Below are positions 37,019 through 56,152 of a stretch of 64,000 bases of DNA, piece by piece. A program made the translations under genes and the position numbers. This DNA is from Dehalococcoidia bacterium (lineage in GTDB: Bacteria; Chloroflexota; Dehalococcoidia; Lucifugimonadales; UBA3495). The notes below the pieces were generated by a model, which saw only the letters and a program-made list of their open reading frames with translations, searched no databases and was not told the origin of the DNA. The number at the start of each line of letters is the position of its first letter. Positions within the stretch are counted from its first letter, which is position 1. Where the stretch lies: the NCBI GenBank assembly GCA_965226825.1, contig CBDDED010000003.1, forward strand, positions 2,825,642 to 2,889,641, read 5' to 3'.

Positions 37019-38545
37019 CAGGGTATGTCAATTGGCTTGCCGTCATCCTCGCCGCAGCGGGGATCCAAAGCCCTTTTGTCCCCCACTCCCGTCATCCTCG
37101 CCGCAGCGGGGATCCAGAGCCCTAATCATGCGCCAGGACTGTTATGCCAGCCGGGTGGTCAGGCCGGTGTTCTGCCTGGGGCGTTCCTGCAGACCCGCAT
37201 CAGGTTGGATGGGAGAAAGGGCTCTGGATTCCCACTTCGGTGAGAATGACGGGGGGCTCGCCCAGGTCACACATGAGGATGAAAATGGCCTGTTCCATAG
37301 TAACCCGGAGGCCCTTTTTATCCCCCACTCCCGTCATCCTCGCCGCAGCGGGGATCCAGAGCCCTGATCAAGCGCCAGGACTGTCATGCCAGCCGGGTGG
37401 TCAGGCCGGTGTTCTGCCTGGGGCGTTCCTGCAGACCCGCATCAGGTTGGATGGGAGAAAGGGCTCTGGATTCCCACTTCGGTGAGAATGACGGGGGGCT
37501 CGCCCAGGTCACACATGAGGATGAAAATGGCCTGTTCCATAGTAACCCGGAGGCCCTTTTTATCCCCCACTCCCGTCATCCTCGCCGCAGCGGGGATCCA
37601 GAGCCCTGATCAAGCGCCAGGACTGTCATGCCAGCCGGGTGGTCAGGCCGGTGTTCTGCCTGGGGCGTTCCTGCAGACCCGCATCAGGTTGGATGGGAGA
37701 AAGGGCTCTGGATTCCCACTTCGGTGAGAATGACGGGGGGCTCCCCAGGTCACACATGAGGATGAAAATGGCCTGTTTCCATAGTAATCCGGAGGCCCTT
37801 TTTATCCCCCACTCCCGTCATCCTCGCCGCAGCGGGAATCGAGAGCGCTGACCCCGTGTCAAGGCGGTTATGCCAGCTAAGGCGAGCCGGGTGGTCAGGC
37901 CGGTGTTCTGCCTGGGGCGTTCCTGCAGACCCGCATCAGGTTGAATGGGAGAAAGGGCTCTGGATTCCCACTGCGGTGAGAATGACGGGGGGCTCGCCCA
38001 GGTCACACATGGGGATAAAAATGGCCTGTTTCCATAGTAATCCGGAGGCCCTTTTTATCCCCCACTCCCGTCATCCTCGCCGCAGCGGGGATCCAGAGCC
38101 CTGATCATGCGCCAGGACTGTTATGCCAGCTAAGACGAGCAGGGTGGTCAGGCCGGTGTTCTGCCTGGGGCGTTCCGGCAGACCCGCATCAGGTTGGATG
38201 GGAGAAAGGGCTCTGGATTCCCACTGCGGTGAGAATGACGGGGGGCTCCCCAGGTCACACATGAGGATGAAAATGGCCTGTTTCCATAGTAATCCGGAGG
38301 CCCTTTTTATCCCCCACTCCCGTCATCCTCGCCGCAGCGGGGATCCAGAGCCCTGATCATGCGCCAGGACTGTTATGCCAGCTAAGACGAGCAGGGTGGT
38401 CAGGCCGGTGTTCTGCCTGGGGCGTTCCGGCAGACCCGCATCAGGTTGGATGGGAGAAAGGGCTCTGGATTCCCACTGCGGTGAGAATGACGGGGGGCTC
38501 GCCCAAGTCACACATTAGGATGAGAATGGCCTGTTTCCATAGTAA
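37019..38545. repeat. Tandem array of six 242-253-bp units, each containing a REP-pair cassette
   Basis: CCGTCATCCTCGCCGC at 37089, 37331, 37573, 37815, 38068, 38320; preceded by a family-B-like left end CAGGGTATGTCAATTG. Confidence 0.93.
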
Positions 38546-40702: not shown

Positions 40703-41251
40703 CAGGATCGTTCGATTGTCCCCGGCCATTCTCTCACCGCCGCGGGAATCCAGAACCCCGAATATGCACCAAGACTGTTATCGCAACGGAGGCGCGGCGG
40801 ATGGACAAGTCGACGTCCCACCTGAGTTTGCCCCAGAAGTCCAAGGTTATAACGACATTCGGATTATGGGTGCCATTGAAGACAGAATGGTGTTGTCTAC
40901 CAGCAACCTTCCGTAAATGGACGCTGCCTTGATAGCGACATTCGTACTGCCAAATACTTCTGAAACAGGCTCACCTGGAACATTCCTGCAGGCACGCACC
41001 AAGTTGGATGGGGAAAAGGGCTCTGGATTCCCGCTGCGGCTAGAATGACGGGAGTAGGAGTCAAAATGGGCTCCGGATTCCCGCTGCGGCAAGAGTGACG
41101 GGAGTAGGAGTCAAAATGGGCTCCGGATTCCCGCTGCGGCAAGAGTGACGGGAGTAGGAGTCAAAATGGGCTCCGGATTCCCGCTGCGACGAGAATGACG
41201 GTGAGCTGCGGCGAGAGTGACGGGGGATTCAGTGATAGTCGAACGACCCTG
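40703..41251. mobile_element. MITE family B copy, enlarged by a nested MITE and 50-bp tandem repeats
   Basis: CAGGATCGTTCGATTGTC...GATAGTCGAACGACCCTG; 10-bp flanks GTCCTCCCGC/GTCCTCCGGC; ~50-bp unit repeated 3-4 times at 41019-41200. Confidence 0.85.
40824..40972. mobile_element. Nested MITE family C
   Basis: TIR GAGTTTGCCCCAGAAGT / ACTTCTGAAACAGGCTC; 4-bp ACCT duplication; splits a cassette that is contiguous in the 51503 copy. Confidence 0.75.
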
Positions 41252-41363: not shown

Positions 41364-43064
41364 GTGACAACCACTAAGAGGAGCCCCGAAAAAATCCTGC
41401 AAATGAAACACCGCAGCCGGGAAATCACTAGTGACCCGCACCGAGCCCCGGCCCGGTCTTATTTGGCGGCCATGGGCCTGACCCGGGACGACATGGACAA
41501 GCCTTTCGTGTCCATCGCCAACCTCGCCAGCGACGTCACTCCCTGCAACGTCCACCTTGACCGTTTCGCCGTGGCGGCCAAGGAAGGAGTGAGACTGGCC
41601 GACGGTGTGCCCTTCGAGTTCGGCACCATCACAGTCAGCGACGGCATCTCCATGGGGACCGAAGGCATGAAGACCTCATTGGTGAGCCGCGAGGTCATCG
41701 CAGATTCCATCGAGCTGGTCACATTCGGCGAGCGCATGGACGGCCTGATCACCATCGGGGGCTGCGACAAGAACATGCCCGGTTGCCTGATGGCCTCCGC
41801 CCGGCTCAACGTTCCTGCCATCTTTATCTATGGCGGCTCCATCATGCCGGGCCGGTACAACGGCCAGGACGTAAATATCCAGGACGTTTTCGAAGCGGTA
41901 GGCGCATATGCCAAGGGCGATATGACCCTGGAACAGCTTACCGAACTCGAGCGCAGCGCCTGCCCCGGTGAAGGCTCCTGCGCCGGACTGTTCACCGCCA
42001 ACACCATGTCCACCGCCATTGAAGCCATGGGCATGTCGTTGCCCGGCGACGCCTCGATGCCGGCTATCGATCCCAGGAAGGTGGACGAGGCCCGGGAAGC
42101 CGGGGTAGCGATCATGCGGCTGTTGGAGGAAGACCTCCGCCCCCGGGACATTCTGACCAAGCAAGCCTTTGAAAACGCAATAACCGTGGCCGTGTCCATG
42201 GGAGGCTCCACCAACGTGGTGCTGCACCTGTTGGCCATCGCGTGGGAGGCCGGCATTGATCTCACCCTGGAGGACTTCGACCGCATCAGCCGCAACACCC
42301 CCTACGTTGCCGACATGAAGCCCGCCGGCCGTTACGTCATGGCCGACCTCAGCCGCTACGGGGGCGTCGCCCTGGTGATGCGGCGTCTGCTGGCCGCCGG
42401 ATTGCTCCACGGCGACGCAATCACCGTGACCGGCAAGTCCCTGGCGGAGAACCTTCAAGGCTCGGAGACGATCGAGGACCAACCCATCATCACCCAGGTC
42501 GATTCTCCCCGGAGTCCCACGGGGGGATTGGCGATTCTGAGAGGGAACGTGGCCCCGGAAGGCGCGGTGATAAAGGTCGCCGGACACCAGGAGCGCGTCT
42601 ACCAAGGGCCGGCCAGGGTTTTCAATCAGGAGCAGGGCGCTTTCGACGCCATCCAGCGCGGGGAAATTGTGGCAGGAGACATCGTAGTCATCCGCTACGA
42701 GGGCCCCAAGGGCGGCCCCGGCATGCGGGAAATGCTCGCCGTCACCAGCGCCCTTATCGGACGTGGACTGGGTGACGACGTGGCCCTACTCACCGATGGA
42801 AGGTTCTCCGGCGCGTCCCACGGCCCAATGGTGGGCCATGTGGCCCCGGAAGCTGCCGTCGGCGGACCCATCGCCCTGTTGAAGGAGGGGGACGAAGTAA
42901 CCCTGGACATTCCCAACCGCCAGTTGAACGTCAAACTGACTGAGGAAGAGTTCACCGACCGCCAAAAAGCCTGGCAGCCCCTGCCGCCCAACTACACCAG
43001 CGGCGCTCTAGCCAAGTACGCCAAGCTCGTCGGTTCCGCCTCCCAGGGCGCAGTGACCCAATAA
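41364..43064 (+). CDS. ilvD: Dihydroxy-acid dehydratase
   Basis: [65 protein letters not shown]. Confidence 0.96.
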
Positions 43065-43699: not shown

Positions 43700-43918
43700 G
43701 TTGCGACAACCATCTGCCCAATGAAAGACTGCGACCTAATGGCCCCACATATTCCCAACTACCAGATGCCCAACTGCGATTTGAACGTTAAACTAACTGG
43801 AAAAGAATTCCCGGACCGCCGAAAAGACTGGCAGGCACTGCCGCCCAACTACACCAGCGGCACTTTGACCAAGTTCGGTAGGCTCGAGGGTTCTGCCGTC
43901 CAAGGTACTGTAACCAAG
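43700..43918 (+). pseudogene. Degenerate duplicate of the ilvD 3' end
   Basis: [45 protein letters not shown] versus ilv[46 protein letters not shown]. Confidence 0.85.
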
Positions 43919-43980: not shown

Positions 43981-45045
43981 ATGACCGAACCTGAGGATTC
44001 AATCGAACGAATAGAATCGGAGGAAGAAGACCTCGATTTCAGCACTCCCGTTTACCCAATCAAGTCCTACCCTTCCGATCCGGACTTAGAGACACTTCAC
44101 TCAAGATGGAAGCGCGGCGAGATTATTATCCCCACCTTCCAGCGTGGGTTTGTTTGGAAACCCGCTCAGGCAAGCCGACTAATTGAATCGTTCCTAATGG
44201 GATTGCCGGTTCCCGGCATCTTTGTATTCGTAGAGGGTCGTGACCAGGGAGAAGGCAGTCAAAGGCAATTGGTAATTGACGGCCAACAACGGTTGCGGAG
44301 CGTATTCGGGTTTCTCGACGGCAATCTGCCTGACGGAAGAGTTTTCTCGCTAACCGGCGTAGACGATCGGTGGGAGAGCAAAAAATTCGTGGACCTTGAA
44401 CCTGCCGAGCAGAGAACCTTGCTGTATTCGGTGCTTAGGGTTATCAACATCGAACAAGGGGAACCCGAAGACGACAGTTCAAGCATTTATCAAATTTTCG
44501 AACGGCTGAACACGGGTGGAACTACCCTCACCCCTCAGGAAATACGGAATAGTTCCTACCATGGTCCATTCAACGACATGCTGCTGGAGACGAACCAAAA
44601 TCCTATTTGGCGGGACGTATTCGGTGTCTCGCAACCCGACTCCAGAATGCGGGACATCGAAATGATAGCGCGATTTCTGGCCTTGTACGAAGGTCCTGAT
44701 TCATACGCCAAGCCGATGAAGAAATTCATTAACGATTACATGGAGACCCATAAGAAGGAATCAAACCCTGAAACGTACCAGAGCATCTTCCTCGATTCCG
44801 CGCATCGCGTGGTATCTTCCTTGGGTAAACGGCCCTTCCATGTACGACGGGGCATCAACGTCGCGGTATACGACGCCACTATGGTAGCATTCGCTACGTC
44901 GGATTCAACACCACCTAACATCTCTGAGCGATATAAGATCCTATTGGCGGATGACAGTTTCACTAAAGCTACGACTTCGGGCACAACTGATGTTGACACT
45001 GTTAGGGAGCGGTTGGAAATTGCTCGCCGAATTCTTTTCGGATAA
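43981..45045 (+). CDS. DUF262 (ParB/GmrS-like) domain protein
   Basis: IPTFQRGFVW, LIESFLMGLPVP, LVIDGQQRL, IFERLNTGG. Confidence 0.9.
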   Translation: MTEPEDSIERIESEEEDLDFSTPVYPIKSYPSDPDLETLHSRWKRGEIIIPTFQRGFVWKPAQASRLIESFLMGLPVPGIFVFVEGRDQGEGSQRQLVIDGQQRLRSVFGFLDGNLPDGRVFSLTGVDDRWESKKFVDLEPAEQRTLLYSVLRVINIEQGEPEDDSSSIYQIFERLNTGGTTLTPQEIRNSSYHGPFNDMLLETNQNPIWRDVFGVSQPDSRMRDIEMIARFLALYEGPDSYAKPMKKFINDYMETHKKESNPETYQSIFLDSAHRVVSSLGKRPFHVRRGINVAVYDATMVAFATSDSTPPNISERYKILLADDSFTKATTSGTTDVDTVRERLEIARRILFG

Positions 45046-45563
45046 TGCTCCAAGACGCTTATGTGGCACAAAGGTGCTCCGAGATTGAGAGTAGTCTTCG
45101 ATATGCGGCCAACAAATCCAGAACTGACCCAGAGTTAGGGGGCCATCTAGCATCTTATATCAGTGTGCTGATATCCGGCGTGGTCGAGGACTCCATAGAG
45201 CACCTAGTAGTCGAACGGGCAAGGAAGGCAAACGATACCCAGCTTCAGGAGTTCGTCCGATCTTCAATAGGCCAGCAATTCAGAAATCCCCGCTCGCAAG
45301 ATATAGCGAATGTCTTGGGGAGATTCAGCGAGAACTACCAAGGTTCATACCAGCGTTCGGTCAGCCGAGCAGCACGGGAGGCGCTAGGCAGCATCGTCGG
45401 GAACCGGATGTCCCTGGCACACCGTGGCGCGTCGCAATTGAGTCTAACCGTCAATGATGTCCGCATGTATTTCGAGTTGATAATTGAGATATTGACAGTT
45501 GTAGAGAGTATATTGTTATCGGACAACCAAGCCAATGAGATTGCCCACGAAAGTCCGGAATAG
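45045..45563 (+). CDS. HEPN-domain protein (RiboL-PSP/MAE_28990-like)
   Basis: N-terminal ISGVVE helix and R-x4-H motif RMSLAH; 1-bp stop/start overlap with DUF262. Confidence 0.75.
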   Translation: MLQDAYVAQRCSEIESSLRYAANKSRTDPELGGHLASYISVLISGVVEDSIEHLVVERARKANDTQLQEFVRSSIGQQFRNPRSQDIANVLGRFSENYQGSYQRSVSRAAREALGSIVGNRMSLAHRGASQLSLTVNDVRMYFELIIEILTVVESILLSDNQANEIAHESPE

Positions 45564-45613
45564 CCGGGCTCACACCCTTTTTCTCACGATAATAGCTCAA
45601 AAGGAGAAAAACC

Positions 45614-46762
45614 ATGACCATGGACTACGGAGCGATAGCCATCGAGCGCCACCGGGAGAGTCGCGGCAAGGTGAGTATCGCCTCCAAGATGAAAGTGGAG
45701 ACCCTGGAGGACCTGTCTATTGCATACACTCCGGGTGTGGCCTCCGTCTGCATGGCCATCCATGCCGATAAGTCGCAATCGTACCTGCTGACCAACCGCA
45801 GCAACACCATCGCCGTGATCACTGACGGCTCGGCGGTGTTGGGCCTGGGCAACATCGGCGCCGAAGCAGCCATGCCTGTAATGGAAGGCAAGTCCATTCT
45901 ATTTAAGACGTTGGCCGATGTGGACGCCTATCCAATCTGCATCGCCTCCCAGGATAACGACATAATTATCCAGACTGCGCGCGCCATCGCCCCCAGCCTG
46001 GGCGGCATCAACCTTGAGGACATCGCCGCTCCCCGTTGCTTTGAAATAGAAGACGCCCTGCAGGACCTGGGAATCCCCGTGTTTCACGACGACCAACACG
46101 GCACCGCCGTAGCCGTGCTGGCGGCCGTCATCAATGCCCTGGAAGTCACCGGACGAAAGATTGAAGACAGTAAGTTCGTTTTCGCCGGGGCCGGCGCCGG
46201 AGGCATCGCTTCGACCAAGCTGTTGTTGGACTTCGGAGCAACCAACGTTGTGCTGGTGGACAGCGTCGGAATCATCCACCGGAACCGCACCGACCTCACC
46301 CCAATCAAGACCTCCATGTTGGACATCACCAATCCCGACAACCTGGAGGGAGGCCTGGCCGAAGCCATGGCGGGCGCAGACGTGTTCATCGGCCTGGCTG
46401 TCGCCGACCTGGTAACCCAGGAGATGGTCGCCTCCATGGCCAAGGACTCCATCGTTTTTGCCATGGCGAATCCCGTTCCCGAAATCATGCCCGACCTGGC
46501 CCGCGCCGGCGGGGCCCGCGTGGTGGGCACCGGTCGCAGCGACTTCCCCAACCAGATAAACAACAGCCTGGTGTTCCCCGGTGTGTTCCGTGGCGCCCTG
46601 GATGCCCGGGCCACCCGGATTACCACCAAGATGAAGCTGTCGGCAGCCCAGGCATTGGCCGCCATGGTGCCGGAGGTTACCGCCGAGTGCGTCATCCCCT
46701 GGTCGTTGGACAAGGAAGTAGCCAAAGTAGTGGCCAGGGCGACTGCAGAAGCCTGGGGCTAA
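45614..46762 (+). CDS. NAD(P)-dependent malic enzyme
   Basis: AYTPGVA, TDGSAVLGLGNIG, PVMEGK, INLEDI, FHDDQHGT, AMANPVPE, TGRSDFPNQINN. Confidence 0.95.
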   Translation: MTMDYGAIAIERHRESRGKVSIASKMKVETLEDLSIAYTPGVASVCMAIHADKSQSYLLTNRSNTIAVITDGSAVLGLGNIGAEAAMPVMEGKSILFKTLADVDAYPICIASQDNDIIIQTARAIAPSLGGINLEDIAAPRCFEIEDALQDLGIPVFHDDQHGTAVAVLAAVINALEVTGRKIEDSKFVFAGAGAGGIASTKLLLDFGATNVVLVDSVGIIHRNRTDLTPIKTSMLDITNPDNLEGGLAEAMAGADVFIGLAVADLVTQEMVASMAKDSIVFAMANPVPEIMPDLARAGGARVVGTGRSDFPNQINNSLVFPGVFRGALDARATRITTKMKLSAAQALAAMVPEVTAECVIPWSLDKEVAKVVARATAEAWG

Positions 46763-46779
46763 GCCCCTTATTCCCCGGT

Positions 46780-47001
46780 CAGGGCTTTTCAACAGTCCCC
46801 CGTCATTCTCACCGCAGTGGGAATCCAGAGCCCTGACTATGCGCCATGCCGGTTATGCCGCCCAAGAAGCGCCAGGTGGACAGGTCGACGCCGCACCTGG
46901 ACCATTGCTGCAAACCCGCATCAGATTGGATCGGAGAAAGGGCTCTGAGTTCCCGCTGTCGCAGGTGACCGGGGAGAATTAATGACAATCGGATGCACCA
47001 A
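46780..47001. mobile_element. MITE family B copy (right end decayed)
   Basis: CAGGGCTTTTCAACAGTC left end, REP-pair cassette, flanks ATTCCCCGGT/TATCCCCGGT. Confidence 0.65.
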
Positions 47002-47169
47002 TATCCCCGGTGCATCCCCCTGAAAGCGCCGGGCGGAAAAAGTTGGGAGCGAAATGCTCGACCGCATCCGCCCCAACCTGGTTACCCCGGTTCTTCGCCA
47101 GTATGCGAGGGGGATTTGCGGGATTTAGCAAGGTTTAGCGGCGAACCCTGCTCCCAACGGAGGACCAAC

Positions 47170-47973
47170 ATAGCTTCAGACTTGGTACCTCTCAAGATTG
47201 ACCGTGCCGTGGGTCTCATCACCCTCAACCGACCGGAGGCCCGCAACGCCTTTTCCCAGGAAATGCTGGCCCGCCTCTCCGCGGCGTTGGACGAGTGCCG
47301 CTCCAGTGAGGTGAGGTCGGTCCTGCTGACCGGGTCCGGCGAGGCTTTTTGCTCGGGGGCTGACGTGCGAGAGTTCACCAGTCAGCTCAACTCCGGCGGG
47401 CCCGCGGGAATTTCGGACCACTTGCGGGAACTTGCCGGATTTTTCCACGACAAGGTGATTTTGCCGATACGGCAACTGGAAAAACCGGTGGTGGCAGGAG
47501 TCAACGGGGTGGCTGCCGGGGGCGGGTTCAGCCTGATGGCCGCCTGCGACCTGCGGGTGGCCGCCGACAATGCCAGGTTTTTGATGGCTTACGCCAACAT
47601 CGGAGCCACCGCAGACGGCGGGTCCACCTTTTTTCTGCCCCGTCTGATCGGGACCAGCCGGGCCATGGAATTGTACCTGTCGAACCAGCCGTTGAGCGCA
47701 GAAGCGGCCCTGTCCATGGGTCTGGTCAGCCAGGTTTTCCCGGCGGCGGATTTCAACCAACGCGCCATGGAAACGGCTCTACGCCTCGCCCAGGGGCCCA
47801 CCGTTGCCTACGCCAAGGTCAAGGCCATGTTCGAGTCCACCTGGCAGGCGGGGCTGGAGACCCAGTTGGACCAGGAAACCGATTTCATCTCCGACATCGC
47901 CCTGACCCACGACTTTCAAGACGGGATCCGGGCATTTTCCGAGAAGCGCCGGCCGGAGTTTAACGGGAGTTGA
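47170..47973 (+). CDS. Enoyl-CoA hydratase/isomerase (PaaG-like); start uncertain (ATA 47170 or TTG 47182)
   Basis: ITLNRPEARNA, AFCSGAD, VNGVAAGGG, DFQDGIRAFSEKRRPEF. Confidence 0.9.
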   Translation: MASDLVPLKIDRAVGLITLNRPEARNAFSQEMLARLSAALDECRSSEVRSVLLTGSGEAFCSGADVREFTSQLNSGGPAGISDHLRELAGFFHDKVILPIRQLEKPVVAGVNGVAAGGGFSLMAACDLRVAADNARFLMAYANIGATADGGSTFFLPRLIGTSRAMELYLSNQPLSAEAALSMGLVSQVFPAADFNQRAMETALRLAQGPTVAYAKVKAMFESTWQAGLETQLDQETDFISDIALTHDFQDGIRAFSEKRRPEFNGS

Positions 47974-48002
47974 CCCCCTCCACGCTGGGGTGTTTCCTGG
48001 GG

Positions 48003-50519
48003 CTACTTCAGTTGGACCATCGTGACGCCTTCACCGCCCGCCCCTTCTCCCGGACCCGATTCAACCACCAAGGGATGCCCTAGCAGGTACTCCCGGATTG
48101 CCCGGCGCAAAGCCCCCGTGCCCTTGCCGTGAATTATCTTAATCTCGGCCGATTCGTCCAGGGCCGCGTCGTTCAGCAAGGTTTCCACCTGGTCCAGGGC
48201 CGTTTCCACCCTCAAACCCCTCAGGTCGATTTCGTTGCCGGCTGGGCGGCGGGGTTTACGGTCTACGTGAAAGTCCCGGGGGCTAGGGGTTGGCTGCACG
48301 GCCTGCGCCGGACGCTCCAGTTGGTACACCGGAATTTTGGCCCGCATCGCGCCCAGAAGCACCTCTATCTGGCCCTGCCCGTCGGCTTCAGACACCACCT
48401 CCAACGGTCGGGCAATCCCCCGCACGTACACCCGGTCGCCGGGGGCAACTTGCCCTTGCCATTCCGGCCGCAGGACCGGGATGGGCTGCCATTGGGGGTT
48501 GTCCAGGGCCCGGCGAACCTGCTCCAGGTTGTCTCTCTGCTCCCTTAACTGAATCCTGGGTTGTTGAGTCCTGGGCTGGCCCGCCGCGGGTTCTTGTTCC
48601 CGCCAGGCCCGCTCCAGAACGCGTTCCGCATCCTGGATTTGGGCCGAGAGAGCCCCGGTCCGGTCCTGCAGCTCCCGCCGCGCCTGCTCCACCAGGTCCA
48701 GTTTCGCCGACTCCACGTTGGCCAGTTCGGTCTCGATCCGCGCCTGCTGTTCCCTGGCGGAGGCCGCCGATTCCTCGGCTTCCCGGCGCAGGTCCTCCAC
48801 CACAACCCGTTCACGTTGCAATTCCCCCAGGAGGTTCTCGGTAGCCAGTTCCACCGGAGAGAGGGAGGTCCGCGCCTGCTCGACAATCGCTTCCGGCATC
48901 CCCAAGCGGCTGGCAATAGTCAACGCGTAGCTCCGTCCGGGCAACCCCTGGGTGACCCGGTAGGTCGGCTCCAGGGTCTGAGGATGAAGATCGACGCTCG
49001 CGTTGACCATGCCTGGGGTTTCCTGGACGTAGCGGGCCACGCCGCGGTGATGGGTTGTGGCCACTAGCAGCAGCCCCATCTCCTGAAAATGCGACAAAAT
49101 TGATTTAGCCAGCGCAGACCCTTCCTCCGGATCGGTGCTGGTCCCCAGTTCGTCCAGCAGCACCAATGACCGGTCGGTCGCCCGGCCCATGATCGAGAGG
49201 ATGTTGCTGATATGGGAGCTGAACGTGGAGAGGGATTGCTCAATACTCTGCTGGTCGCCAATATCGGCATACACGCCGTCGAGGGCGGGAAATCTGGCCT
49301 GTTCCGCCGGCACGTGCAGACCGGCGTGAGCCATCAGCGCCAGCAACCCCGCCGTTTTCAGCGCCACGGTCTTGCCCCCGGCATTGGGCCCGGTAATTAG
49401 CATCACCGTCTGCGCGGCGCCCAAACTCACGCTGATCGGCACCACGTCGCCCGACAGAAGCGGATGCCGCGCCGCGGTGAGCGCCAACCGGCGTTCGGCC
49501 ATGGCGCCGCCGGGGTTTCCTGCGTCGATGCCTTGGAGTGTATCCAAGGGGCGGGAAACCGACGGCTCAATGGCCTTCAGGGCTATGGACTGCCGCCCTT
49601 TGGCCATTGCAAGGTCCAACCGGGCCAACAGGTCCAGCAGCAGCAGCAGGTCTTGCCCGGCCATGCCCACCCGTGTCGACAGTTGCCGGAGAATACGCTC
49701 CTCCTCGCGTTCTTCTGCCCGGCGCACTTCCCGCCAGCGGTTCCCCAGTTCAATAGCCGGCATGGGCTCAATGAACACCGTTGCGCCGCTGTCGGAAACG
49801 TCGTGGACAATGCCCGGAGCCTTGGACCGCATGTCGGCTTTAATCAGCAAAACCAGCCGGCCGTTGCGCTCGGTGATGATGGGTTCTTGGACCACCTCCT
49901 GCGCCTGAAACCGCCGGAGGCTCCGCTCCATGGTCTGGTTCAACCGCTGGTAAGCGGCCCGGGTTGCCTGCCTCAGGTCTCTCAAAGACGGGCTGGCGTC
50001 GTCCAGAACTTCTCCGGCTACACTGATGGCCGAGAAAATCTCCCGGGCCAAGTCTCCCGGGTCCGGCAGGTTTTCCGCAACGCTCGAAATAAGAGGCAAT
50101 TCCTCGTGGCGCAGCAGCGCCGCGCGGTTGGACCGCGCCGCCTCAACCAGCAGCCGGGTGGAGTGCAACTCATGGCCCCGGAGCAAGCCCCCCAGAATCG
50201 CCCGTTGGAAATACTCCTGGAAATCGACGCCGGGCCCAAACTCCAGGCCGCCCCCCGATTCCAGAAAACGGCGGGCCTCGCTGGTCTCCTGTTGCCGGGT
50301 GGCAATCTCCAGCACATCCGAGACCGGCGCCAATTCCCGAGCGCGTTGGCGTCCCAACACGGTGCGGACAAACCCGGAAAGTCCGTCTCGAATTTGATCG
50401 AACTCCAACAGGCCGGCCGCCTGGGAAAACCCGTCCAACGCACCGCTTAATGCAATGGTGGCCCCGCCCGAATCCGAAGCTGAATTTACCTGCGTTTGGT
50501 CCTCTCTTTTATTCGTCAC
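48003..50519 (-). CDS. mutS2: MutS2 (endonuclease / ribosome-collision factor family)
   Basis: GIVHDVSDSGATVFIEP, Walker A TGPNAGGKT, DIGDQQSIEQSLSTFS, LLDELGTSTDPEEG, coiled coil, KOW-like PGDRVYV, Smr domain IDLRG...IIHGKGTG. Confidence 0.95.
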   Translation of the reverse strand: MTNKREDQTQVNSASDSGGATIALSGALDGFSQAAGLLEFDQIRDGLSGFVRTVLGRQRARELAPVSDVLEIATRQQETSEARRFLESGGGLEFGPGVDFQEYFQRAILGGLLRGHELHSTRLLVEAARSNRAALLRHEELPLISSVAENLPDPGDLAREIFSAISVAGEVLDDASPSLRDLRQATRAAYQRLNQTMERSLRRFQAQEVVQEPIITERNGRLVLLIKADMRSKAPGIVHDVSDSGATVFIEPMPAIELGNRWREVRRAEEREEERILRQLSTRVGMAGQDLLLLLDLLARLDLAMAKGRQSIALKAIEPSVSRPLDTLQGIDAGNPGGAMAERRLALTAARHPLLSGDVVPISVSLGAAQTVMLITGPNAGGKTVALKTAGLLALMAHAGLHVPAEQARFPALDGVYADIGDQQSIEQSLSTFSSHISNILSIMGRATDRSLVLLDELGTSTDPEEGSALAKSILSHFQEMGLLLVATTHHRGVARYVQETPGMVNASVDLHPQTLEPTYRVTQGLPGRSYALTIASRLGMPEAIVEQARTSLSPVELATENLLGELQRERVVVEDLRREAEESAASAREQQARIETELANVESAKLDLVEQARRELQDRTGALSAQIQDAERVLERAWREQEPAAGQPRTQQPRIQLREQRDNLEQVRRALDNPQWQPIPVLRPEWQGQVAPGDRVYVRGIARPLEVVSEADGQGQIEVLLGAMRAKIPVYQLERPAQAVQPTPSPRDFHVDRKPRRPAGNEIDLRGLRVETALDQVETLLNDAALDESAEIKIIHGKGTGALRRAIREYLLGHPLVVESGPGEGAGGEGVTMVQLK

Positions 50520-50564
50520 ATCTCCTCAGTGACCCGGAATTCGCTCCTGTTGCATCCCCACCAA

Positions 50565-51344
50565 TCACCAGTCAAGGGGCCATACCCGGCTGTCCCAAAG
50601 CATCTCCCCGACCTTTTCCAGGGTGTCCCGCTTGGGGTCTCTAACGTTCAGACGCCTTCCCTGGAGTATCTTCCGGTGACGCTGCAAGAACGGACACGAC
50701 TTCAGGAAGCCATTCAGCGTGGAGCTTTCTCCACCCAGCACGATGTAGTCCAAAGCGCCAACGTAGGGCGTCAACTGCGCCTCCATCGCCCGGCAGGCCG
50801 AGCCGTAGATGCTTTGAATCTGCCCCTCTCGAATCCGGGAAAACCGTTTTTGAGAGGTCCCCCCGGCGCTGTGGCGCCCCTTCACGTACCGGCTGTCAGT
50901 CTTGCTGGAAAGCAATTTCTGGCCCTGGAACACCGCCGCCGAGAACCTTCCCAACCGGAGCAGCACCACGCCAATAGTGTGGTCCGCATCCAGCAGGGTC
51001 AACAACGGCTGTTGGTCCCACGGTTCGCCAATTCGGTTTTCCGGCACGGGAAACGGCGGAGCCAGGACCAAACCCCGCGGCCCGTTCCTCAGGCACACCA
51101 ACCCGGTTTCCAATTGAAGCACGTCGGCCTTCAGAGACGCCAGGTGCACCAGCCACTGGGCCCCCAGGTCACTCTGGGTCTTCAAAAATGCCTGGGCCTC
51201 CCCGGGTTTGAGGTAAACCGATGAGGTCGAAGCCGCGTTGTCCATCCCCGGCGGCTGCACCCAACCGCCGAGCATTCGGACCAACCCATCTTTGCCGATC
51301 AATTGCCCCGGTTGAACCCGGAAGGTTTCAACGCCTTCTGCCAT
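50565..51344 (-). CDS. acVLRF1 / Vms1-ANKZF1-like (eRF1-fold) peptidyl-tRNA release factor
   Basis: LAPPFP, GVVLLRLGRFSAAVF, catalytic-loop-like VKGRHSAGGTSQKRFSRIRE, YIVLGG. Confidence 0.82.
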   Translation of the reverse strand: MAEGVETFRVQPGQLIGKDGLVRMLGGWVQPPGMDNAASTSSVYLKPGEAQAFLKTQSDLGAQWLVHLASLKADVLQLETGLVCLRNGPRGLVLAPPFPVPENRIGEPWDQQPLLTLLDADHTIGVVLLRLGRFSAAVFQGQKLLSSKTDSRYVKGRHSAGGTSQKRFSRIREGQIQSIYGSACRAMEAQLTPYVGALDYIVLGGESSTLNGFLKSCPFLQRHRKILQGRRLNVRDPKRDTLEKVGEMLWDSRVWPLDW

Positions 51345-51502
51345 TGACACTCCCACGAGTAGTTCCGCTCAAATTGTAACATTGGCCCTTCTACCCCCGA
51401 ATCAACCCCCCACCAACCCCACCTCCGTTCGACACCCAACAAAAAAAGTTTCGCGCAGCTTTTCCAATAGCGGGTACCTCGTCCCCAACCTCAAACGGCT
51501 AC

Positions 51503-51773
51503 TAAGGCCTTTCCATTGTCCCCCGTAATTCTCGCCGCAGCGGGAATCCAGAACCCTGATTATGTGCCAAGACTGTTATGCCAACTAAGACGCGCCGGAT
51601 GGACAGGTCGACGTCCCACTTGGAACATTCCTGCAGACACGCTCCAGGTTGGATGGGGAAAAGGGCTCTGGATTCCCGCTGCGGCGAGAATGACGGGGTA
51701 GGAGTCAAAATTGGCTCCAGCTTCCTGTTGCGGCAAGAGCGACGGGGGATTCGATGATAATCGACAGACCCTA
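51503..51773. mobile_element. MITE family B copy with REP-pair cassette
   Basis: TAAGGCCTTTCCATTGTC...GATAATCGACAGACCCTA; perfect AACGGCTAC duplication on both sides. Confidence 0.85.
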
Positions 51774-51899
51774 AACGGCTACCGTTGGAATTGCTTGGGG
51801 AATTCGATTTTGCTACACTAGCCCTCACTCCCGTCGGGTTAAACGCCCCGGCAAATGCTCCGAAAAATCCGTCTCAGATGGTCCCTCAAAGGAGTCAAC

Positions 51900-52520
51900 A
51901 TGATTTACGAAGTACGCACCTACACTCTGAAACCCGGCTCAGTGGCAACCTTTGAAGAAAACTTCGCCAAGGCCCTTCCCCATCGGGAAAAGTACTCCAA
52001 GCTGGCAGCGTTCTGGCACACCGATATTGGCCCGCTCAACCAGGTAATCCACGTTTGGCCCTACGAAAGCCTGGATCAGCGCGAGGAGATCCGGGCGGAA
52101 GCGGTAAAAGACCCCAACTGGCCGCCCGCCAACGACCCCGACATGTACCTGCGACAGGAATCAGAGATTTTCACCCCTGCGCCGTTCATGCGCCCCATGG
52201 GCGGAGACCAGGCGCTGGGCGGCGTCTATGAGATGCGGATTTACACTTACAAGACCGGCTCCATGGGCGAGGTGCTCAAGCGCTGGGGCGCCGCCATCCA
52301 CCACCGGGAGGAGTACTCCCCGTTGGCGGCAGGCATGTCCAGCGAGTTGGGCGGTCTCAACCGGTGGATGCACGTATGGCCCTACAAGGACCTGGGCGAG
52401 CGTGACCGCATTCGCAACGAAGCCCTGGGCAACCCGAACTGGCCTCCGCCCACTAGGGAGTTTCTGCAGAGTCAGGAGAACAAAATCCTGGTCCCGGCTG
52501 CTTTCTCGCCGATGCACTAG
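51900..52520 (+). CDS. NIPSNAP family protein (two domains)
   Basis: IYEVRTY...GPLNQVIHVWPY repeated as VYEMRIY...GGLNRWMHVWPY; FSPM end. Confidence 0.92.
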   Translation: MIYEVRTYTLKPGSVATFEENFAKALPHREKYSKLAAFWHTDIGPLNQVIHVWPYESLDQREEIRAEAVKDPNWPPANDPDMYLRQESEIFTPAPFMRPMGGDQALGGVYEMRIYTYKTGSMGEVLKRWGAAIHHREEYSPLAAGMSSELGGLNRWMHVWPYKDLGERDRIRNEALGNPNWPPPTREFLQSQENKILVPAAFSPMH

Positions 52521-52640
52521 GCAACCCAACCCCGGTGCATCTCGACCAACGCACCGTCTGCGTTACCGGCTAATTTCAGGTAATTCATCTTAGGGGTCGG
52601 CCACAATCTCCAGCGCCGGCCCCTTTGCATAGGAATCAAC

Positions 52641-53489
52641 ATGAAAATCGGCATCTCTCTGTCGCTTACAGACACCACCGTCGACATCGTGACCCTGGCG
52701 CGAAAGTGCGAGGAGTTGGGTTTCGAGTCGCTATGGATGCCCGAGCACACGGCCATTCCGGTGCATGTCTCGTCCCCGTGGGTCGGCAGCGCCGACGGTT
52801 CGATCCCAGAGGACATGGCCCACATCGTGGACCCGTTTATCGCCCTGGCCCACGCCTCGGCGGTGACGACCACGCTCAACCTGGGCACGTCGGTCTGCCT
52901 GGTCCCGGAGAGGAACCCCATAGTGCTGGCCAAGGAGATTGCATCCCTGGACTATTTCTCCAAGGGCCGCGTCCTGTTCGGCATCGGATCGGGCTGGCTG
53001 AAAGAGGAGACCGAGCTTTACGGCATCAGGTTTGAAGACCGGGCCGCAGTCATGCGGGAAAACATCCTGGCGATGAAGGCCCTGTGGACCAACGACGAGG
53101 CGGAGTTCCACGGTAAATTCGTCGACTTCCCCGCAATCAAGGTATACCCCAAGCCGGTGCGCCAACCCCACCCTCCCATCTTTTTGGGTGGCCGCGCCAA
53201 GAACGTTTTCCGGCGAATTGTGGCCTGGGGCGACGGCTGGATGCCCACCCGCACCACCCCCGAAGAGATTGAGCAGGGACGCCGGGAAATCGACCGCCTG
53301 GCTCAAGCAGCAGGACGCGACCCGTCCAGCATCGAGGTGATGGTGCACGGGCAAGCCGGGGACCCGGAACTGCTCCGCGACTTTGAAAACGCCGGCGCCG
53401 AACGAGCAATGATCGGGCTGCCCCGGGGCGCAAACGAAGCCAATGCCCTAACCGCCCTGGAAGAGATTGCCGGCAAGGTTTTAACCTGA
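52641..53489 (+). CDS. LLM class oxidoreductase, probably F420-dependent
   Basis: GFESLWMPEH, LAKEIASLDYFSKGRVLFGIGSGW, PKPVRQPHPP. Confidence 0.9.
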   Translation: MKIGISLSLTDTTVDIVTLARKCEELGFESLWMPEHTAIPVHVSSPWVGSADGSIPEDMAHIVDPFIALAHASAVTTTLNLGTSVCLVPERNPIVLAKEIASLDYFSKGRVLFGIGSGWLKEETELYGIRFEDRAAVMRENILAMKALWTNDEAEFHGKFVDFPAIKVYPKPVRQPHPPIFLGGRAKNVFRRIVAWGDGWMPTRTTPEEIEQGRREIDRLAQAAGRDPSSIEVMVHGQAGDPELLRDFENAGAERAMIGLPRGANEANALTALEEIAGKVLT

Positions 53490-53557
53490 CCAACCCGCGC
53501 CGGTCCGCGCTGCTCTAATCCTTCCCGCTTTGACCGGCCGACATCACAACAGGACCC

Positions 53558-53968
53558 ATGCAGGCTGACGCATCTGAAATCCAGGTATTGAAGGACGCCA
53601 ACCAGCGTTTTTACGACGCGTTTGGAGCCTTGGACATCGGCCTGATGGAAGACGTTTGGGAGGATTCCGACCAGGCCATGTGCGTCCATCCCGGCTGGCA
53701 GCCCCTTATCGGTTGGGATCCGATCCGCGCCAGTTGGCGGGGGATTTTCGACAACACCAGCCTGATGCACTTCAACATCCAGTACGTGAACGTGGTGGTG
53801 GAAGGTGACGTTGGTTGGGTCACCTGCTTCGAGCGCATAACCTCCGTTTTGCAGGGACAGGCCAGCAACTTCAGCACCTTGGTGACGAACATATTTGTCC
53901 GTTCCTCCCTGACCAGAGACCGCCAGTGGAAAATGATCGCCCACCACGCCTCGATCGGCATGGGTTAG
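53558..53968 (+). CDS. SnoaL/NTF2-like protein
   Basis: ANQRFYDAF, CVHPGW, TNIF, WKMIAHHAS. Confidence 0.88.
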   Translation: MQADASEIQVLKDANQRFYDAFGALDIGLMEDVWEDSDQAMCVHPGWQPLIGWDPIRASWRGIFDNTSLMHFNIQYVNVVVEGDVGWVTCFERITSVLQGQASNFSTLVTNIFVRSSLTRDRQWKMIAHHASIGMG

Positions 53969-54354
53969 AGCGGCCCGGAAAGTCCGATACCCGCCCGTGA
54001 CTCCACGGTGCCCATACCCCCTACGGTCCGCTTCGATCATGGGGCGAGTCTCGCTTGATGAAGAGGATGATTCCCAGCCCTGGCCCCTGGAATTCATACC
54101 TTCTCAGAGTTGCGTCCATCCCCTTGCCCCAACGGATACGCTCCGAAAATTCTTCCTCAATTCCGCAACTTGTTCTCCAACCCCTAGACGCCGGATTCCG
54201 TCGGGCCCACAATAGATATAGGCCGTTGGCGAATCTCGCTCCGGGTCAACAGAATAAATCGCCCTCCGGTGGCAGATGCCCCAAATCAACCGGCTCCGAG
54301 AAAACATCGCCATTCTATTGCCTCCCCAGGTACCCTTAATTTGAGGATGCCACT

Positions 54355-55614
54355 ATGGCCGCGGAAATATCCCAACTGAGCAACACCGACAAAAACCTCT
54401 GGCGAGCCATTGTTTCCGAAGCGTTGGCCAACCTGAAGTACAACGCTTACGCCATCAAGGCCATGGAAGAGGGCCTGCCAGAAGTCGCCCAGATTTTTCA
54501 GGAGGTGTCGGGCGCCGAGACGATTCACGGGATCAACCACCTGCGAGTTTCCGGGGAAATCGGCACCAGCCTGGAAAACCTGCGGGCGGTTTCCGCGGAA
54601 GAATCCAAGGAGTTCAGCTCCTTCTATCCCCGGATGATCAAAGAAGCTATCGAGGAAGGACAAACCGACGCTGCAAACTCCTTCTCAGTGGCCATGGAAA
54701 GGGAGATTCATCATCTCGACATGTTCTCCAGGACCCTGGAACGGCTTGAAGCCAAGCAGACCGCCGAACTGGGGCCGGCCGCCCCTACGGCCCCGGTGAT
54801 AACGCTGCCCCCTGCTGCTCCGAGAGCAGGAGACACCTCAATTCAACCCACGGACCCCCCCAAGAAATTGGCGGAAATTGCCAATCTGGAGACCTACGTG
54901 ACCGCCGCGATGGAAGTGGACCGGGAACGGGGGCGGGTTGCCAACCTCGGCCGCCTACGGGAGGTGGTCTTTGGCGCCCAAGACGGCATTCTCAGCACAG
55001 TGGCCCTGGTGACGTCGGTGGCGGTGGCGGTGGGGGACACGTCCGTGGTGCTGGTGGCCGGTCTGGCCGCCGCCTTTGCCGGCATGGTTTCCATGGCCAC
55101 CGGGGCCTTCCTGGGATCAAGGGCGGAGCTGGACGTGCAGCGTTCAGAAATAGCGAAAGAGGCCCGCGAGTTGGAGGACCACCCTGCGGAAGAACTGGCC
55201 GAGCTGGTGTTCATGTTCCAAAGAGAGGGACACACCTACGCAGAAGCCCAGGACATGGCCAACGAAATTTCCAAGGACAAAGACTTGTGGCTACGCACCC
55301 TGCTGGAAAAGGAGTTGGGCATCCGCATGGATGAGACCACCAACCCCACCAAGGACGCGCTGGTCATGGGGGCCTCATTTATTGTGGCCGCGATAATCCC
55401 CATCGTGCCATATCTGTTCCTGGAAGGCGGCGCGGCAATAAGCGTTTCAATAACCGCCGCTTTGCTGGGCCTGCTGGCGCTTGGCGCGGGCAAAGGCCGG
55501 TTGGTCCAAAAGTCTCCCCTGTGGCAGGGTCTGGAAATTCTCGGGATCGGCGCGTTGTCGGCAGGGATCGGCTATGCCCTGGGAGATGTGATTCCGCGGT
55601 TGGTCACGCGGTGA
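54355..55614 (+). CDS. Rubrerythrin/ferritin-like domain fused to a VIT1/CCC1 transporter (MbfA-like)
   Basis: EALANLKY, ETIH, EREIHH diiron motifs; REVVFGAQDG, GMVSMATGAFL, IIPIVPY. Confidence 0.85.
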   Translation: MAAEISQLSNTDKNLWRAIVSEALANLKYNAYAIKAMEEGLPEVAQIFQEVSGAETIHGINHLRVSGEIGTSLENLRAVSAEESKEFSSFYPRMIKEAIEEGQTDAANSFSVAMEREIHHLDMFSRTLERLEAKQTAELGPAAPTAPVITLPPAAPRAGDTSIQPTDPPKKLAEIANLETYVTAAMEVDRERGRVANLGRLREVVFGAQDGILSTVALVTSVAVAVGDTSVVLVAGLAAAFAGMVSMATGAFLGSRAELDVQRSEIAKEARELEDHPAEELAELVFMFQREGHTYAEAQDMANEISKDKDLWLRTLLEKELGIRMDETTNPTKDALVMGASFIVAAIIPIVPYLFLEGGAAISVSITAALLGLLALGAGKGRLVQKSPLWQGLEILGIGALSAGIGYALGDVIPRLVTR

Positions 55615-55798
55615 CGTCATTGGATTCCCCTCGACAGGTAGCGTCATGCCATCTCCCTGGCTCAGTAGAAGCCGGGTTTGAATTGCCGGAGGTAGACCTC
55701 TCCGGCTGGTAATTGTGACTTTGCCCCGCACGCCGCGAGAGACGCGGTGTTAAAATAACACCCAACCATTCAAGTAACCGGGCAAAGGCAACCCAAGA

Positions 55799-56152
55799 AT
55801 GCTGAACCAGGATTCAGAATATAGGATTGCCAGCAGGCAATTGCTGGCCCAAGGATTCACAGAATTGGCGTCGGGCGACGTAAGACAGGCCTCTGAGAAG
55901 GGTTGGGGAGCCGCCGCTCAGATGCTTAAGGCGGTTGCGGAACAACGAGGCTGGCAGCATAACAGCCACGGTGCGCTGTACCGGGTCGTGGACAGATTGG
56001 TGCAGGAAACCAACGATAGAGAGATCCACAATTTGTTCCACGTTGCCAACGGCTTGCACGTCAACTTCTACGAGAATTGGGCCACTGATGCGTCCATCGA
56101 AGATGGCCTCCAGGACATGGAGCGCCTCTTGGATAAGTTGGAGCGCGTCTAG
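55799..56152 (+). CDS. PaREP1/HEPN-like protein
   Basis: GDVRQASEKGWGAAAQMLKAVA...LHVNFYEN. Confidence 0.75.
   Translation: MLNQDSEYRIASRQLLAQGFTELASGDVRQASEKGWGAAAQMLKAVAEQRGWQHNSHGALYRVVDRLVQETNDREIHNLFHVANGLHVNFYENWATDASIEDGLQDMERLLDKLERV

What the first reader, a model, noticed from the sequence alone, without database searches (positions are those of the whole stretch)
48003..51344. Vms1/ANKZF1-like release factor apparently co-transcribed with MutS2: candidate bacterial ribosome split-and-release module
Seen: an eRF1-fold protein with the loop KGRHSAGGTSQKRF lies 45 bp upstream of mutS2 on the same strand with no evident terminator between them; the MutS2 keeps its ATPase, coiled-coil, KOW-like and Smr (DLRG) domains. 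Established: Bacillus subtilis MutS2 senses collided ribosomes and promotes splitting, which leaves peptidyl-tRNA on the 50S; eukaryotic Vms1/ANKZF1 frees nascent chains from split 60S subunits using a Gln-containing loop; bacterial VLRF1 proteins are, to my knowledge, largely uncharacterised. Inference: the two genes form a ribosome quality-control pathway in which MutS2 splits and acVLRF1 releases the chain, a eukaryote-like solution in a bacterium.
Basis: partly seen in the sequence, partly recalled or inferred. Interest (0 to 1): 0.8.

Follow-up and report, generated by a model that had tools for sequence, protein, structure and literature searches.

The report
MutS2-paired ribosome release factor candidate
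A small gene related to archaeal and eukaryotic protein-release factors sits beside the ribosome-splitting gene mutS2 here and in three separate lineages of one bacterial class in which the usual clean-up factor RqcH was not found, so it likely frees unfinished proteins from ribosomes that MutS2 has split.

Summary
In detail: an acVLRF1 gene (PF18859) lies 45 bp upstream of an intact mutS2 on the same strand. The pair is adjacent in 28 of 69 class genomes holding both genes and in 19 families overall, in both orders, with unrelated flanks. Trees point to three separate junctions. In this order the genes co-occur (66 both, 30 neither, 15 one only, of 111). RqcH was found in 0 of 261 class genomes.

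Against: most genomes with both genes keep them apart; 102 of 260 have MutS2 without acVLRF1; actinobacterial acVLRF1 occurs without MutS2; mutS2 also keeps unrelated neighbours (selA) across 8 families; one transcript is not shown.

Correction: the Gln is not invariant (42 of 112 homologues have none in the loop). Arg157 and Gly161-Gly162, spaced as Vms1's essential residues, are conserved instead.

Best reading (0.5): MutS2 splits collided ribosomes and acVLRF1 would free the chain from the 50S without alanine tailing. No paper linking the two was found in four searches and one supplement. This scan noted the same pairing earlier on other DNA (e1-1088487).

The parts
50565..51344 (-). acVLRF1-family gene, 259 aa: degenerate eRF1 N-domain plus eRF1 middle (RNase H-fold) domain; no C-terminal domain
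50982..51308 (-). N-terminal domain (residues 13-121): eRF1/aRF1 N-domain fold, with the stop-codon-reading NIKS loop deleted in the family profile
   Evidence: Z 8.0/7.9/7.9 to aRF1/eRF1, rmsd 3.4-3.6 over 101-104 residues; next unrelated row Z 4.0; alignment; Foldseek alone gave only E 0.13
50841..50882 (-). Loop K155-F168 (KGRHSAGGTSQKRF). G161, G162, S164 and R167 invariant; R157 and H158 nearly so; T163 and Q165 variable
50520..50564 (.). 45-bp intergenic gap; no terminator-like site found
48003..50519 (-). mutS2, 838 aa from a GTG (start uncertain; the family model aligns from residue 36)
48858..49403 (-). MutS2 ABC-ATPase domain (residues 373-554); Walker A GPNAGGKT and Walker B LLDELG intact
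48327..48443 (-). KOW/SH3-like segment (residues 693-731), weak match
   Evidence: PF20297, E 4.7e-5, below cut-off
48006..48230 (-). Smr domain with DLRG and HGKG, the non-cleaving type described for B. subtilis MutS2
51373..51381 (-). Extended -10-like element (TGTTACAAT) about 30 nt upstream of the acVLRF1 ATG; candidate promoter for the pair
   Evidence: read by eye; not reported by the promoter scan; untested

Best explanation
The two genes likely form a two-step ribosome rescue route without alanine tailing: MutS2 would split collided ribosomes, and acVLRF1 would enter the empty A site of the leftover 50S-peptidyl-tRNA and free the unfinished chain. Shown here: family identity, intact MutS2 motifs, predicted fold, repeated adjacency, co-occurrence, and no RqcH match in 261 class genomes. 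Taken from B. subtilis papers: MutS2 splits disomes by ATP hydrolysis and leaves peptidyl-tRNA on the 50S. Inferred: acVLRF1 needs no codon (NIKS loop and C-domain lost) and no Gln side chain. Its R-H-x-x-G-G-x-S loop would reach the peptidyl-transferase centre and release the chain, either by ester hydrolysis through the loop backbone (about 55 in 100 of this reading) or by a Vms1-type cut near the tRNA 3' end (about 45 in 100). The partnership is optional, not obligate.
For: Adjacent on the same strand in 28 of 69 class genomes with both genes, 15 of 27 families; in 15 of 15 further own-family genomes with the gene; and in four more families of the order. Both gene orders occur. Among 2129 neighbour-cluster pairs in 147 loci this pair reaches 14 families and the next 6; the flanks sampled were unrelated genes. 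Three junctions use three different acVLRF1 clades: one clade for all linked rows is rejected for acVLRF1 (p-AU 0.0001) and for MutS2 (p-AU 3e-6). Own order: 66 both, 8 acVLRF1 only, 7 mutS2 only, 30 neither; the association holds in small and large genomes. NFACT_N (RqcH) 0 of 261, with the control ringing in B. subtilis and 9 others, against mutS2 in 172 of 261. G000 has only two RF-1-family genes, so no ArfB was found. R157 is R/K in 107 of 112 and G161/G162 are invariant, with the spacing of Vms1 R288 and G292/G293, the mutants that had no release activity even at 10-fold excess, whereas Q295L was described as strongly impaired (PMC5989216). The Gln backbone amide is described as catalytic in GGQ factors (PMC6742477).
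Against: 41 of 69 class genomes and 54 of 66 order genomes with both genes keep them apart. 102 of 260 class genomes have MutS2 with neither acVLRF1 nor RqcH, so MutS2 works without it. 12 of 81 acVLRF1 genomes gave no mutS2 match. 0 of 80 mostly actinobacterial loci have mutS2 within 5 kb, and Actinobacteriota have mutS2 in 0 of 3213 genomes (PMC11633108). mutS2 keeps unrelated neighbours by descent: selA in 13 of 40 unlinked loci from 8 families and rarA in 8 of 40, DUF192 in 12 of 15. Phylogenetically independent pairs lean the right way but are not significant (6.4 same vs 0.6 opposite, median p 0.06). One acVLRF1 clade for two of the three junctions is not rejected (p-AU 0.24-0.34). The conserved loop residues are largely shared with aRF1, so none marks a new active site. 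Pth and SmpB are present in G000 and could do the job.
Confidence: 0.5

Rival explanations
1. acVLRF1 is a non-catalytic A-site occupant, like Pelota/Dom34 or Balon. It would help the MutS2 ABC-ATPase split ribosomes or hold split or idle subunits; Pth or tmRNA would release the chain.
For: The GGQ Gln position is Gln in 0 of 49 linked members, and 42 of 112 homologues have no loop Gln. An N-domain fold is kept. Dom34, Pelota and Balon match the fold at Z 11-12, above Vms1 at 8.4-8.8.
Against: G-G-x-S-x-x-R is invariant in 95 of 95 aligned sequences, whereas the inactive families have poorly conserved loops of variable length (PMC6514570 section 2.3). The C-domain of eRF1/Pelota/Balon is absent.
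Confidence: 0.2
2. acVLRF1 is a stand-alone, codon-independent rescue factor for stalled or non-stop 70S ribosomes (an ArfB-like role). It sits next to mutS2 only because the two are usefully expressed together under translation stress.
For: It occurs without MutS2 in Actinobacteria and in 12 of 81 class genomes. Burroughs and Aravind describe bacterial VLRF-1 proteins as standalone. No ArfB-type gene was found in G000.
Against: Tight co-occurrence with mutS2 in the order is expected of one pathway rather than of parallel back-ups. Many Actinobacteriota already have arfB (2245 of 3213).
Confidence: 0.15
3. The adjacency is gene-order history without function: an old neighbourhood, locally reshuffled, with co-loss driven by genome streamlining.
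For: Most genomes keep the genes apart. selA, rarA and DUF192 persist beside mutS2 across families. The independent-pairs test is not significant.
Against: Three different acVLRF1 clades abut mutS2, in two orders. The selA, rarA and DUF192 contexts were absent from the linked loci searched (0 of 43; 0 of 5). The association holds within genome-size classes.
Confidence: 0.15

Closest known systems
acVLRF-1 family (Burroughs and Aravind 2019, PMC6514570; Pfam PF18859; NCBIfam NF041024)
   Same: Best family match; GGxSQ loop in this protein; no C-terminal Pelota domain; Actinobacteria/Chloroflexi distribution.
   Different: The paper calls the family standalone, with a conserved Gln and a lost stop-codon domain. 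Here it is repeatedly beside mutS2, the Gln varies (68 of 112 at position 165), and a degenerate eRF1 N-domain fold is kept. 'MutS' occurs 0 times in the main text and 0 times in the supplement.
B. subtilis RQC: MutS2 (RqcU), RqcH, RqcP/YlmH, Pth (PMC10897456, PMC11317155, PMC11633108)
   Same: MutS2 with ATPase, KOW-like and DLR/HGxG Smr domains; Pth present.
   Different: RqcH not found in 261 class genomes; no stand-alone S4 protein found in G000 (86% complete). [quoted passage not shown]
Yeast Vms1 / human ANKZF1 (eVLRF-1), with the ABC-F ATPase Arb1
   Same: VLRF-1 clade by the 2019 classification; fold match across both domains (6r86, 5whg: Z 8.8 and 8.4, rmsd 4.6-4.9 over 171 residues); R-x-x-x-G-G spacing.
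   Different: No sequence match at E up to 1; loop one residue longer; Gln not invariant; no zinc-finger, ankyrin or VIM domains; acVLRF-1 is not the sister family of eVLRF-1.
Archaeal aRF1 / eRF1
   Same: Nearest solved relatives: the profile aligns over residues 8-272 of 3agk at E 3e-24, without gaps through the loop.
   Different: GGQ Gln replaced by S/T in linked members; NIKS loop deleted; C-domain absent.
Balon / baeRF hibernation factors and Pelota/Dom34
   Same: aeRF1 fold in bacteria (Z 11-12); weaker match to baeRF family 10 (53.6 bits).
   Different: Two domains only; invariant GG-x-S-x-x-R loop; neighbour is mutS2.

Membership tests
acVLRF-1 | PF18859 above the gathering score and best among aeRF1-superfamily models | tested here: met
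   95.1 bits vs 27.1; baeRF10 53.6; eRF1_2 31
acVLRF-1 | NCBIfam NF041024 cut-off (125 bits) | tested here: inconclusive
   121.4 bits, E 4e-35, just below the cut-off; an NCBI-named acVLRF1 protein is 53% identical (P0017)
acVLRF-1 | GGxSQ loop followed by an arginine-rich helix | tested here: met
   GGTSQKRFSR in this protein; across 112 class homologues the Gln is present in only 68
acVLRF-1 | No C-terminal Pelota domain | tested here: met
   The protein ends with the middle domain
acVLRF-1 | Stop-codon-binding domain lost, replaced by a short N-terminal extension (as worded in 2019) | tested here: inconclusive
   The N-terminal 120 residues keep the eRF1 N-domain fold (Z 8.0) but lack the NIKS loop: recognition motif lost, fold kept. 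The shorter actinobacterial form was not folded.
acVLRF-1 | Peptidyl-tRNA release activity (predicted for the family, never shown) | not testable with these tools
   Needs an in vitro assay
MutS2 | TIGR01069 above cut-off; no mismatch-recognition domains | tested here: met
   732.8 vs 400; MutS1 models far below cut-off; no MutS_I or MutS_II match
MutS2 | Intact Walker A and B; Smr with DLR and HGxG | tested here: met
   motifs as described in PMC10897456
MutS2 | KOW/SH3 domain that binds uS10 | tested here: inconclusive
   PF20297 23.4 bits, under 26.8; G694, D695, V697 and G723 conserved
MutS2 | Splits collided ribosomes | not testable with these tools
   Shown for B. subtilis; inferred here
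B. subtilis-type RQC pathway | RqcH (NFACT) | tested here: not met
   PF05833 0 of 261 genomes; PF05670 0 in G000
B. subtilis-type RQC pathway | Pth | tested here: met
   (G000 only)
eVLRF-1 (Vms1/ANKZF1) | Invariant Gln in GxxQ | tested here: not met
   Gln present in this protein but not invariant in its family
eVLRF-1 (Vms1/ANKZF1) | Essential Arg four residues before the Gly-Gly | tested here: met
   R157: R/K in 107 of 112 vs R288/G292/G293; aRF1 also has a basic residue there
eVLRF-1 (Vms1/ANKZF1) | Cleavage of the tRNA CCA end | not testable with these tools
   Activity known from a review passage (PMC7026593)
Classical aRF1/eRF1 | GGQ, NIKS loop and C-domain | tested here: not met
   GGT; NIKS deleted; no C-domain
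Balon/baeRF | Three-domain architecture | tested here: not met
   259 aa, two domains; Balon chains are about 360 aa
Balon/baeRF | Neighbouring hibernation-factor (HPF) gene | not tested
   Not searched by family; no such neighbour among the 74 neighbour proteins scanned

The most novel reading that the evidence does not exclude
Probability: 0.3. Interest if true: 0.85.

Novelty: new variant of a known kind. Interest (0 to 1): 0.66.

Why it matters
How a nascent chain leaves a split 50S is the least understood step of bacterial RQC, and no dedicated factor is known (PMC11317155). This class has MutS2 in two thirds of the genomes searched and no detectable RqcH. The pair names a substrate, a partner and mutants for an untested family, and would show release-factor-fold chemistry working without the Gln. 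It can be tested with two small purified proteins or in B. subtilis.

Tried and rejected
Single transcript: contigs from 4 RNA runs of one study bridge the gap in 2 runs at depth 2.5-3.5, but 2 runs also bridge the convergent echA/mutS2 junction, so this is uninformative.

Fused acVLRF1 forms: none among 7994 longer candidates; weak evidence.

The first RpoB tree held 4 wrong reading frames; its independent-pairs values (p 0.016 and 0.039) are discarded in favour.

Loop counts in the actinobacterial loci are not used, because the search pattern demanded the Gln.

tRNA-repair genes in G000 (two PolyA_pol-family genes, one 2',3'-cyclic phosphodiesterase) are common and do not separate the two chemistries; 45 of 50 tRNA genes encode CCA.

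No Rfam match in 44000-56000. No acVLRF1 remnant beside 40 unlinked mutS2 genes. Verma et al. 2018 is not held.
Full report
OBSERVATION. The first is acVLRF1 by Pfam (95.1 bits; NCBIfam 121.4, cut-off 125), the second MutS2 (732.8 bits, cut-off 400). MutS2 keeps Walker A, Walker B and a DLRG/HGKG Smr domain, the type that binds collisions without cutting mRNA in B. subtilis (PMC10897456, passages). The class is probably Dehalococcoidia; this rests on one NCBI name of a 53%-identical protein.

IS THE PAIRING MORE THAN LOCAL? The same 261 class genomes (at least 85% complete) were searched for three families: PF18859 86, mutS2 172, RqcH NFACT_N 0. Four genomes with only weak, long baeRF-like matches were counted as negative. 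Of 260 genomes, 69 have both genes, 12 acVLRF1 only, 102 mutS2 only and 77 neither. In loci of up to 8 kb on each side, the two are adjacent on one strand in 28 of the 69 genomes, from 15 of 27 families; 5 unlinked loci have under 1 kb of flank on one side, but their mutS2 lies elsewhere. In 14 families the order is mutS2 then acVLRF1, with gaps of 63 bp or less in 16 of 26 loci. In the window's family it is the reverse, in 15 of 15 further genomes with the gene. In 111 genomes of the own order, 66 have both, 8 and 7 one only, 30 neither. Only 12 of the 66 are linked, read off the coordinates: acVLRF1-first in f1, f129, f170 and f178, and mutS2-first in f164.

HOW MANY ORIGINS? MutS2 proteins of the 14-family group and of the window's group lie in separate, fully supported clades, the latter nested among unlinked relatives. 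One clade for all linked MutS2 is rejected (p-AU 3e-6 on 30 rows; 0.012 for the two main groups on 48 rows). The f164 acVLRF1 belongs to a third clade (GGSSS loop, support 100/99) and is rejected as a member of either other linked group (p-AU 0.002 and 0.001, 41 rows); 4 further metagenome loci of that subclade are also linked (9 of 63 loci linked in all). The acVLRF1 tree alone does not reject one clade for the two main groups (p-AU 0.34 and 0.24). Trees were built on subsets, with near-copies and long branches left out. I read this as three junctions, at least two of them newly formed (inference). A rough inference: a random move lands co-oriented beside a given gene about once in 3000 moves, so about a hundred moves across the class would seldom give two more junctions; local shuffling would raise that chance.

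CONTROLS. Among 2129 near-neighbour cluster pairs in 147 loci (crude gene calls), this pair spans 14 families and the next spans 6, with a large dehydrogenase family; the loci were chosen for holding one of the two genes. The sampled flanks are unrelated genes, except a convergent enoyl-CoA hydratase shared by f1 and f129. But mutS2 also keeps unrelated neighbours by descent: selA in 13 of 40 unlinked loci (8 families) and rarA in 8 of 40, DUF192 in 12 of 15. Wide adjacency alone is therefore not proof. Those contexts were not seen in the linked loci, which suggests the linked states are derived. On a corrected RpoB tree of 85 genomes, independent pairs go the same way 6.4 times and the other way 0.6 times, median p 0.06: suggestive only. 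Within the order the association holds among small (11/2/3/10) and large (21/4/1/6) genomes, 58 genomes in all.

OUTSIDE THE CLASS. Of 80 mostly actinobacterial loci (the best 80 of 576), none has mutS2 within 5 kb, and 3 of 3 such genomes tested lack it. A published survey gives mutS2 and rqcH in 0 of 3213 Actinobacteriota (PMC11633108, Table 1 passage). An ABC-F-type ATPase lies downstream in 34 of the 80 (19 within 700 bp), echoing Vms1 with Arb1 (PMC7026593, passages), but inside a suf-ABC-F-echA block and in a sample rich in close kin. acVLRF1 was found in 7 of 201 evenly drawn genomes of that phylum.

THE PROTEIN. The model is confident (pLDDT 94). The C-terminal half is the eRF1 middle domain (Z 15.0 to aRF1); Vms1 aligns across both domains at rmsd 4.6-4.9 where aRF1 needs 13-15, suggesting a Vms1-like compact arrangement (predicted). 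The N-terminal 120 residues, folded alone, match the aRF1/eRF1 N-domain (Z 8.0), and the family profile shows the NIKS loop deleted: the fold is kept and codon reading is likely lost. In 95 aligned homologues the invariant residues are G161, G162, S164 and R167. The loop aligns to aRF1 without gaps, which puts the GGQ Gln on T163 and Q165 on a position that is Q or A in aRF1 itself. Among 112 class homologues position 165 is Gln in 68 and position 163 in 19; 42 have neither; among 49 linked ones, 0 have Gln at 163, 48 have a small residue there, and 15 have no Gln. In yeast Vms1, R288A and G292A/G293A abolished release while Q295L strongly impaired it (PMC5989216, passages); R157 and G161/G162 have the same spacing. 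The GGQ backbone amide is described as the catalyst in bacterial factors (PMC6742477, passage). Both chemistries stay open, and the Gln is the wrong test residue.

MECHANISM. MutS2 splitting leaves peptidyl-tRNA on the 50S; in B. subtilis RqcH adds alanines that expose the ester to Pth. No RqcH was found in this class. A codon-blind, two-domain A-site factor with an invariant Gly-Gly loop fits the gap, so I put 0.5 on release from split 50S, 0.2 on a non-catalytic helper, 0.15 on stand-alone 70S rescue and 0.15 on chance. It cannot be the only route: 102 genomes have MutS2 alone, and E. coli, also without RqcH, is reported to route HrpA products to tmRNA (10.64898/2026.04.23.720132, abstract; HrpA splitting: PMC11419001, abstract). 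G000 has Pth, SmpB and two RF-1-family genes.

NOVELTY. Both families are known. Searches for 'VLRF1' (7 papers), 'VLRF-1/aVLRF/bVLRF/Vms1-like', 'MutS2' with 'Vms1' (1 work, passages read) and 'MutS2/ribosome collision/gene neighborhood' (listing, with two papers read in passages) showed no link. Burroughs and Aravind 2019 (abstract, sections 2.2 and 2.3, passages, supplement searched by term) call these proteins standalone and never mention MutS. The library is open-access only: Verma 2018 with its supplements was not held, and Cerullo 2022, Svetlov 2024, Su 2019, Yip 2019 and Kuroha 2018 were seen only through other papers; they may bear on novelty. This scan noted the pairing earlier on another genome (e1-1088487); its wording 'most related Chloroflexi' overstates my count of 28 of 69. 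Verdict: a real, recurrent pairing and a testable candidate pathway; new variant of a known kind; interest 0.66.

Noticed in passing
window 51521-51698; also 38067-38494, 40732-41201, 46794-46974: REP/REPIN-like repeat (two inverted arms of about 37 nt, 104 nt apart) upstream of acVLRF1; 279 arm matches of 30 nt or more in the genome; high contig depth over it in RNA libraries, probably from many copies.
   Followed up: partly
L090:6835-7284, L069:8723-9187, L157:8666-9203, L085:1215-2726: Genes inserted between acVLRF1 and mutS2: REP-associated tyrosine transposase-like ORFs in two genomes, a RelB/RelE toxin-antitoxin pair in one, a DUF2779 protein in one.
   Followed up: no
L405:4426-6115 (also L406): selA followed by a 103-aa Smr-only protein, at the place where mutS2 usually follows selA, converging on a Gln-less acVLRF1 whose stop overlaps it: a possible fourth contact with a collision-sensor domain.
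   Followed up: partly
L290:2596-3063 (G000 contig C2): A second, stand-alone 155-aa Smr-domain protein with a DLH motif in the window's genome; it could be an mRNA-cutting collision sensor.
   Followed up: no
L163-L242, e.g. L237:5974-7569: ABC-F-type ATPase downstream of acVLRF1 in 34 of 80 actinobacterial-type loci, within a suf...echA block.
   Followed up: partly
L092, L094, L096, L098-L100, L103-L106, L108, L109, L112: A second acVLRF1 paralogue clade (13 loci; loop often GGRSE), never linked to mutS2; 9 of its 13 genomes gave no mutS2 match.
   Followed up: partly
L243-L282, L296-L310: Conserved mutS2 neighbours in unlinked lineages: selA upstream, rarA or DUF192 downstream; in several own-order genomes mutS2 lies within about 15 kb of rpoB.
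   Followed up: partly
G000 whole genome: SmpB is present but ARAGORN found no tmRNA gene; the genome is 86% complete, and a permuted or unassembled gene is possible.
   Followed up: no
window 42909-43058 and 43766-43915: A 150-nt, 77%-identical partial duplicate of the 3' end of the preceding 566-aa gene.
   Followed up: no
L150 (G623) and G933: mutS2 reads in two pieces beside acVLRF1; assembly error or pseudogene not told apart.
   Followed up: no
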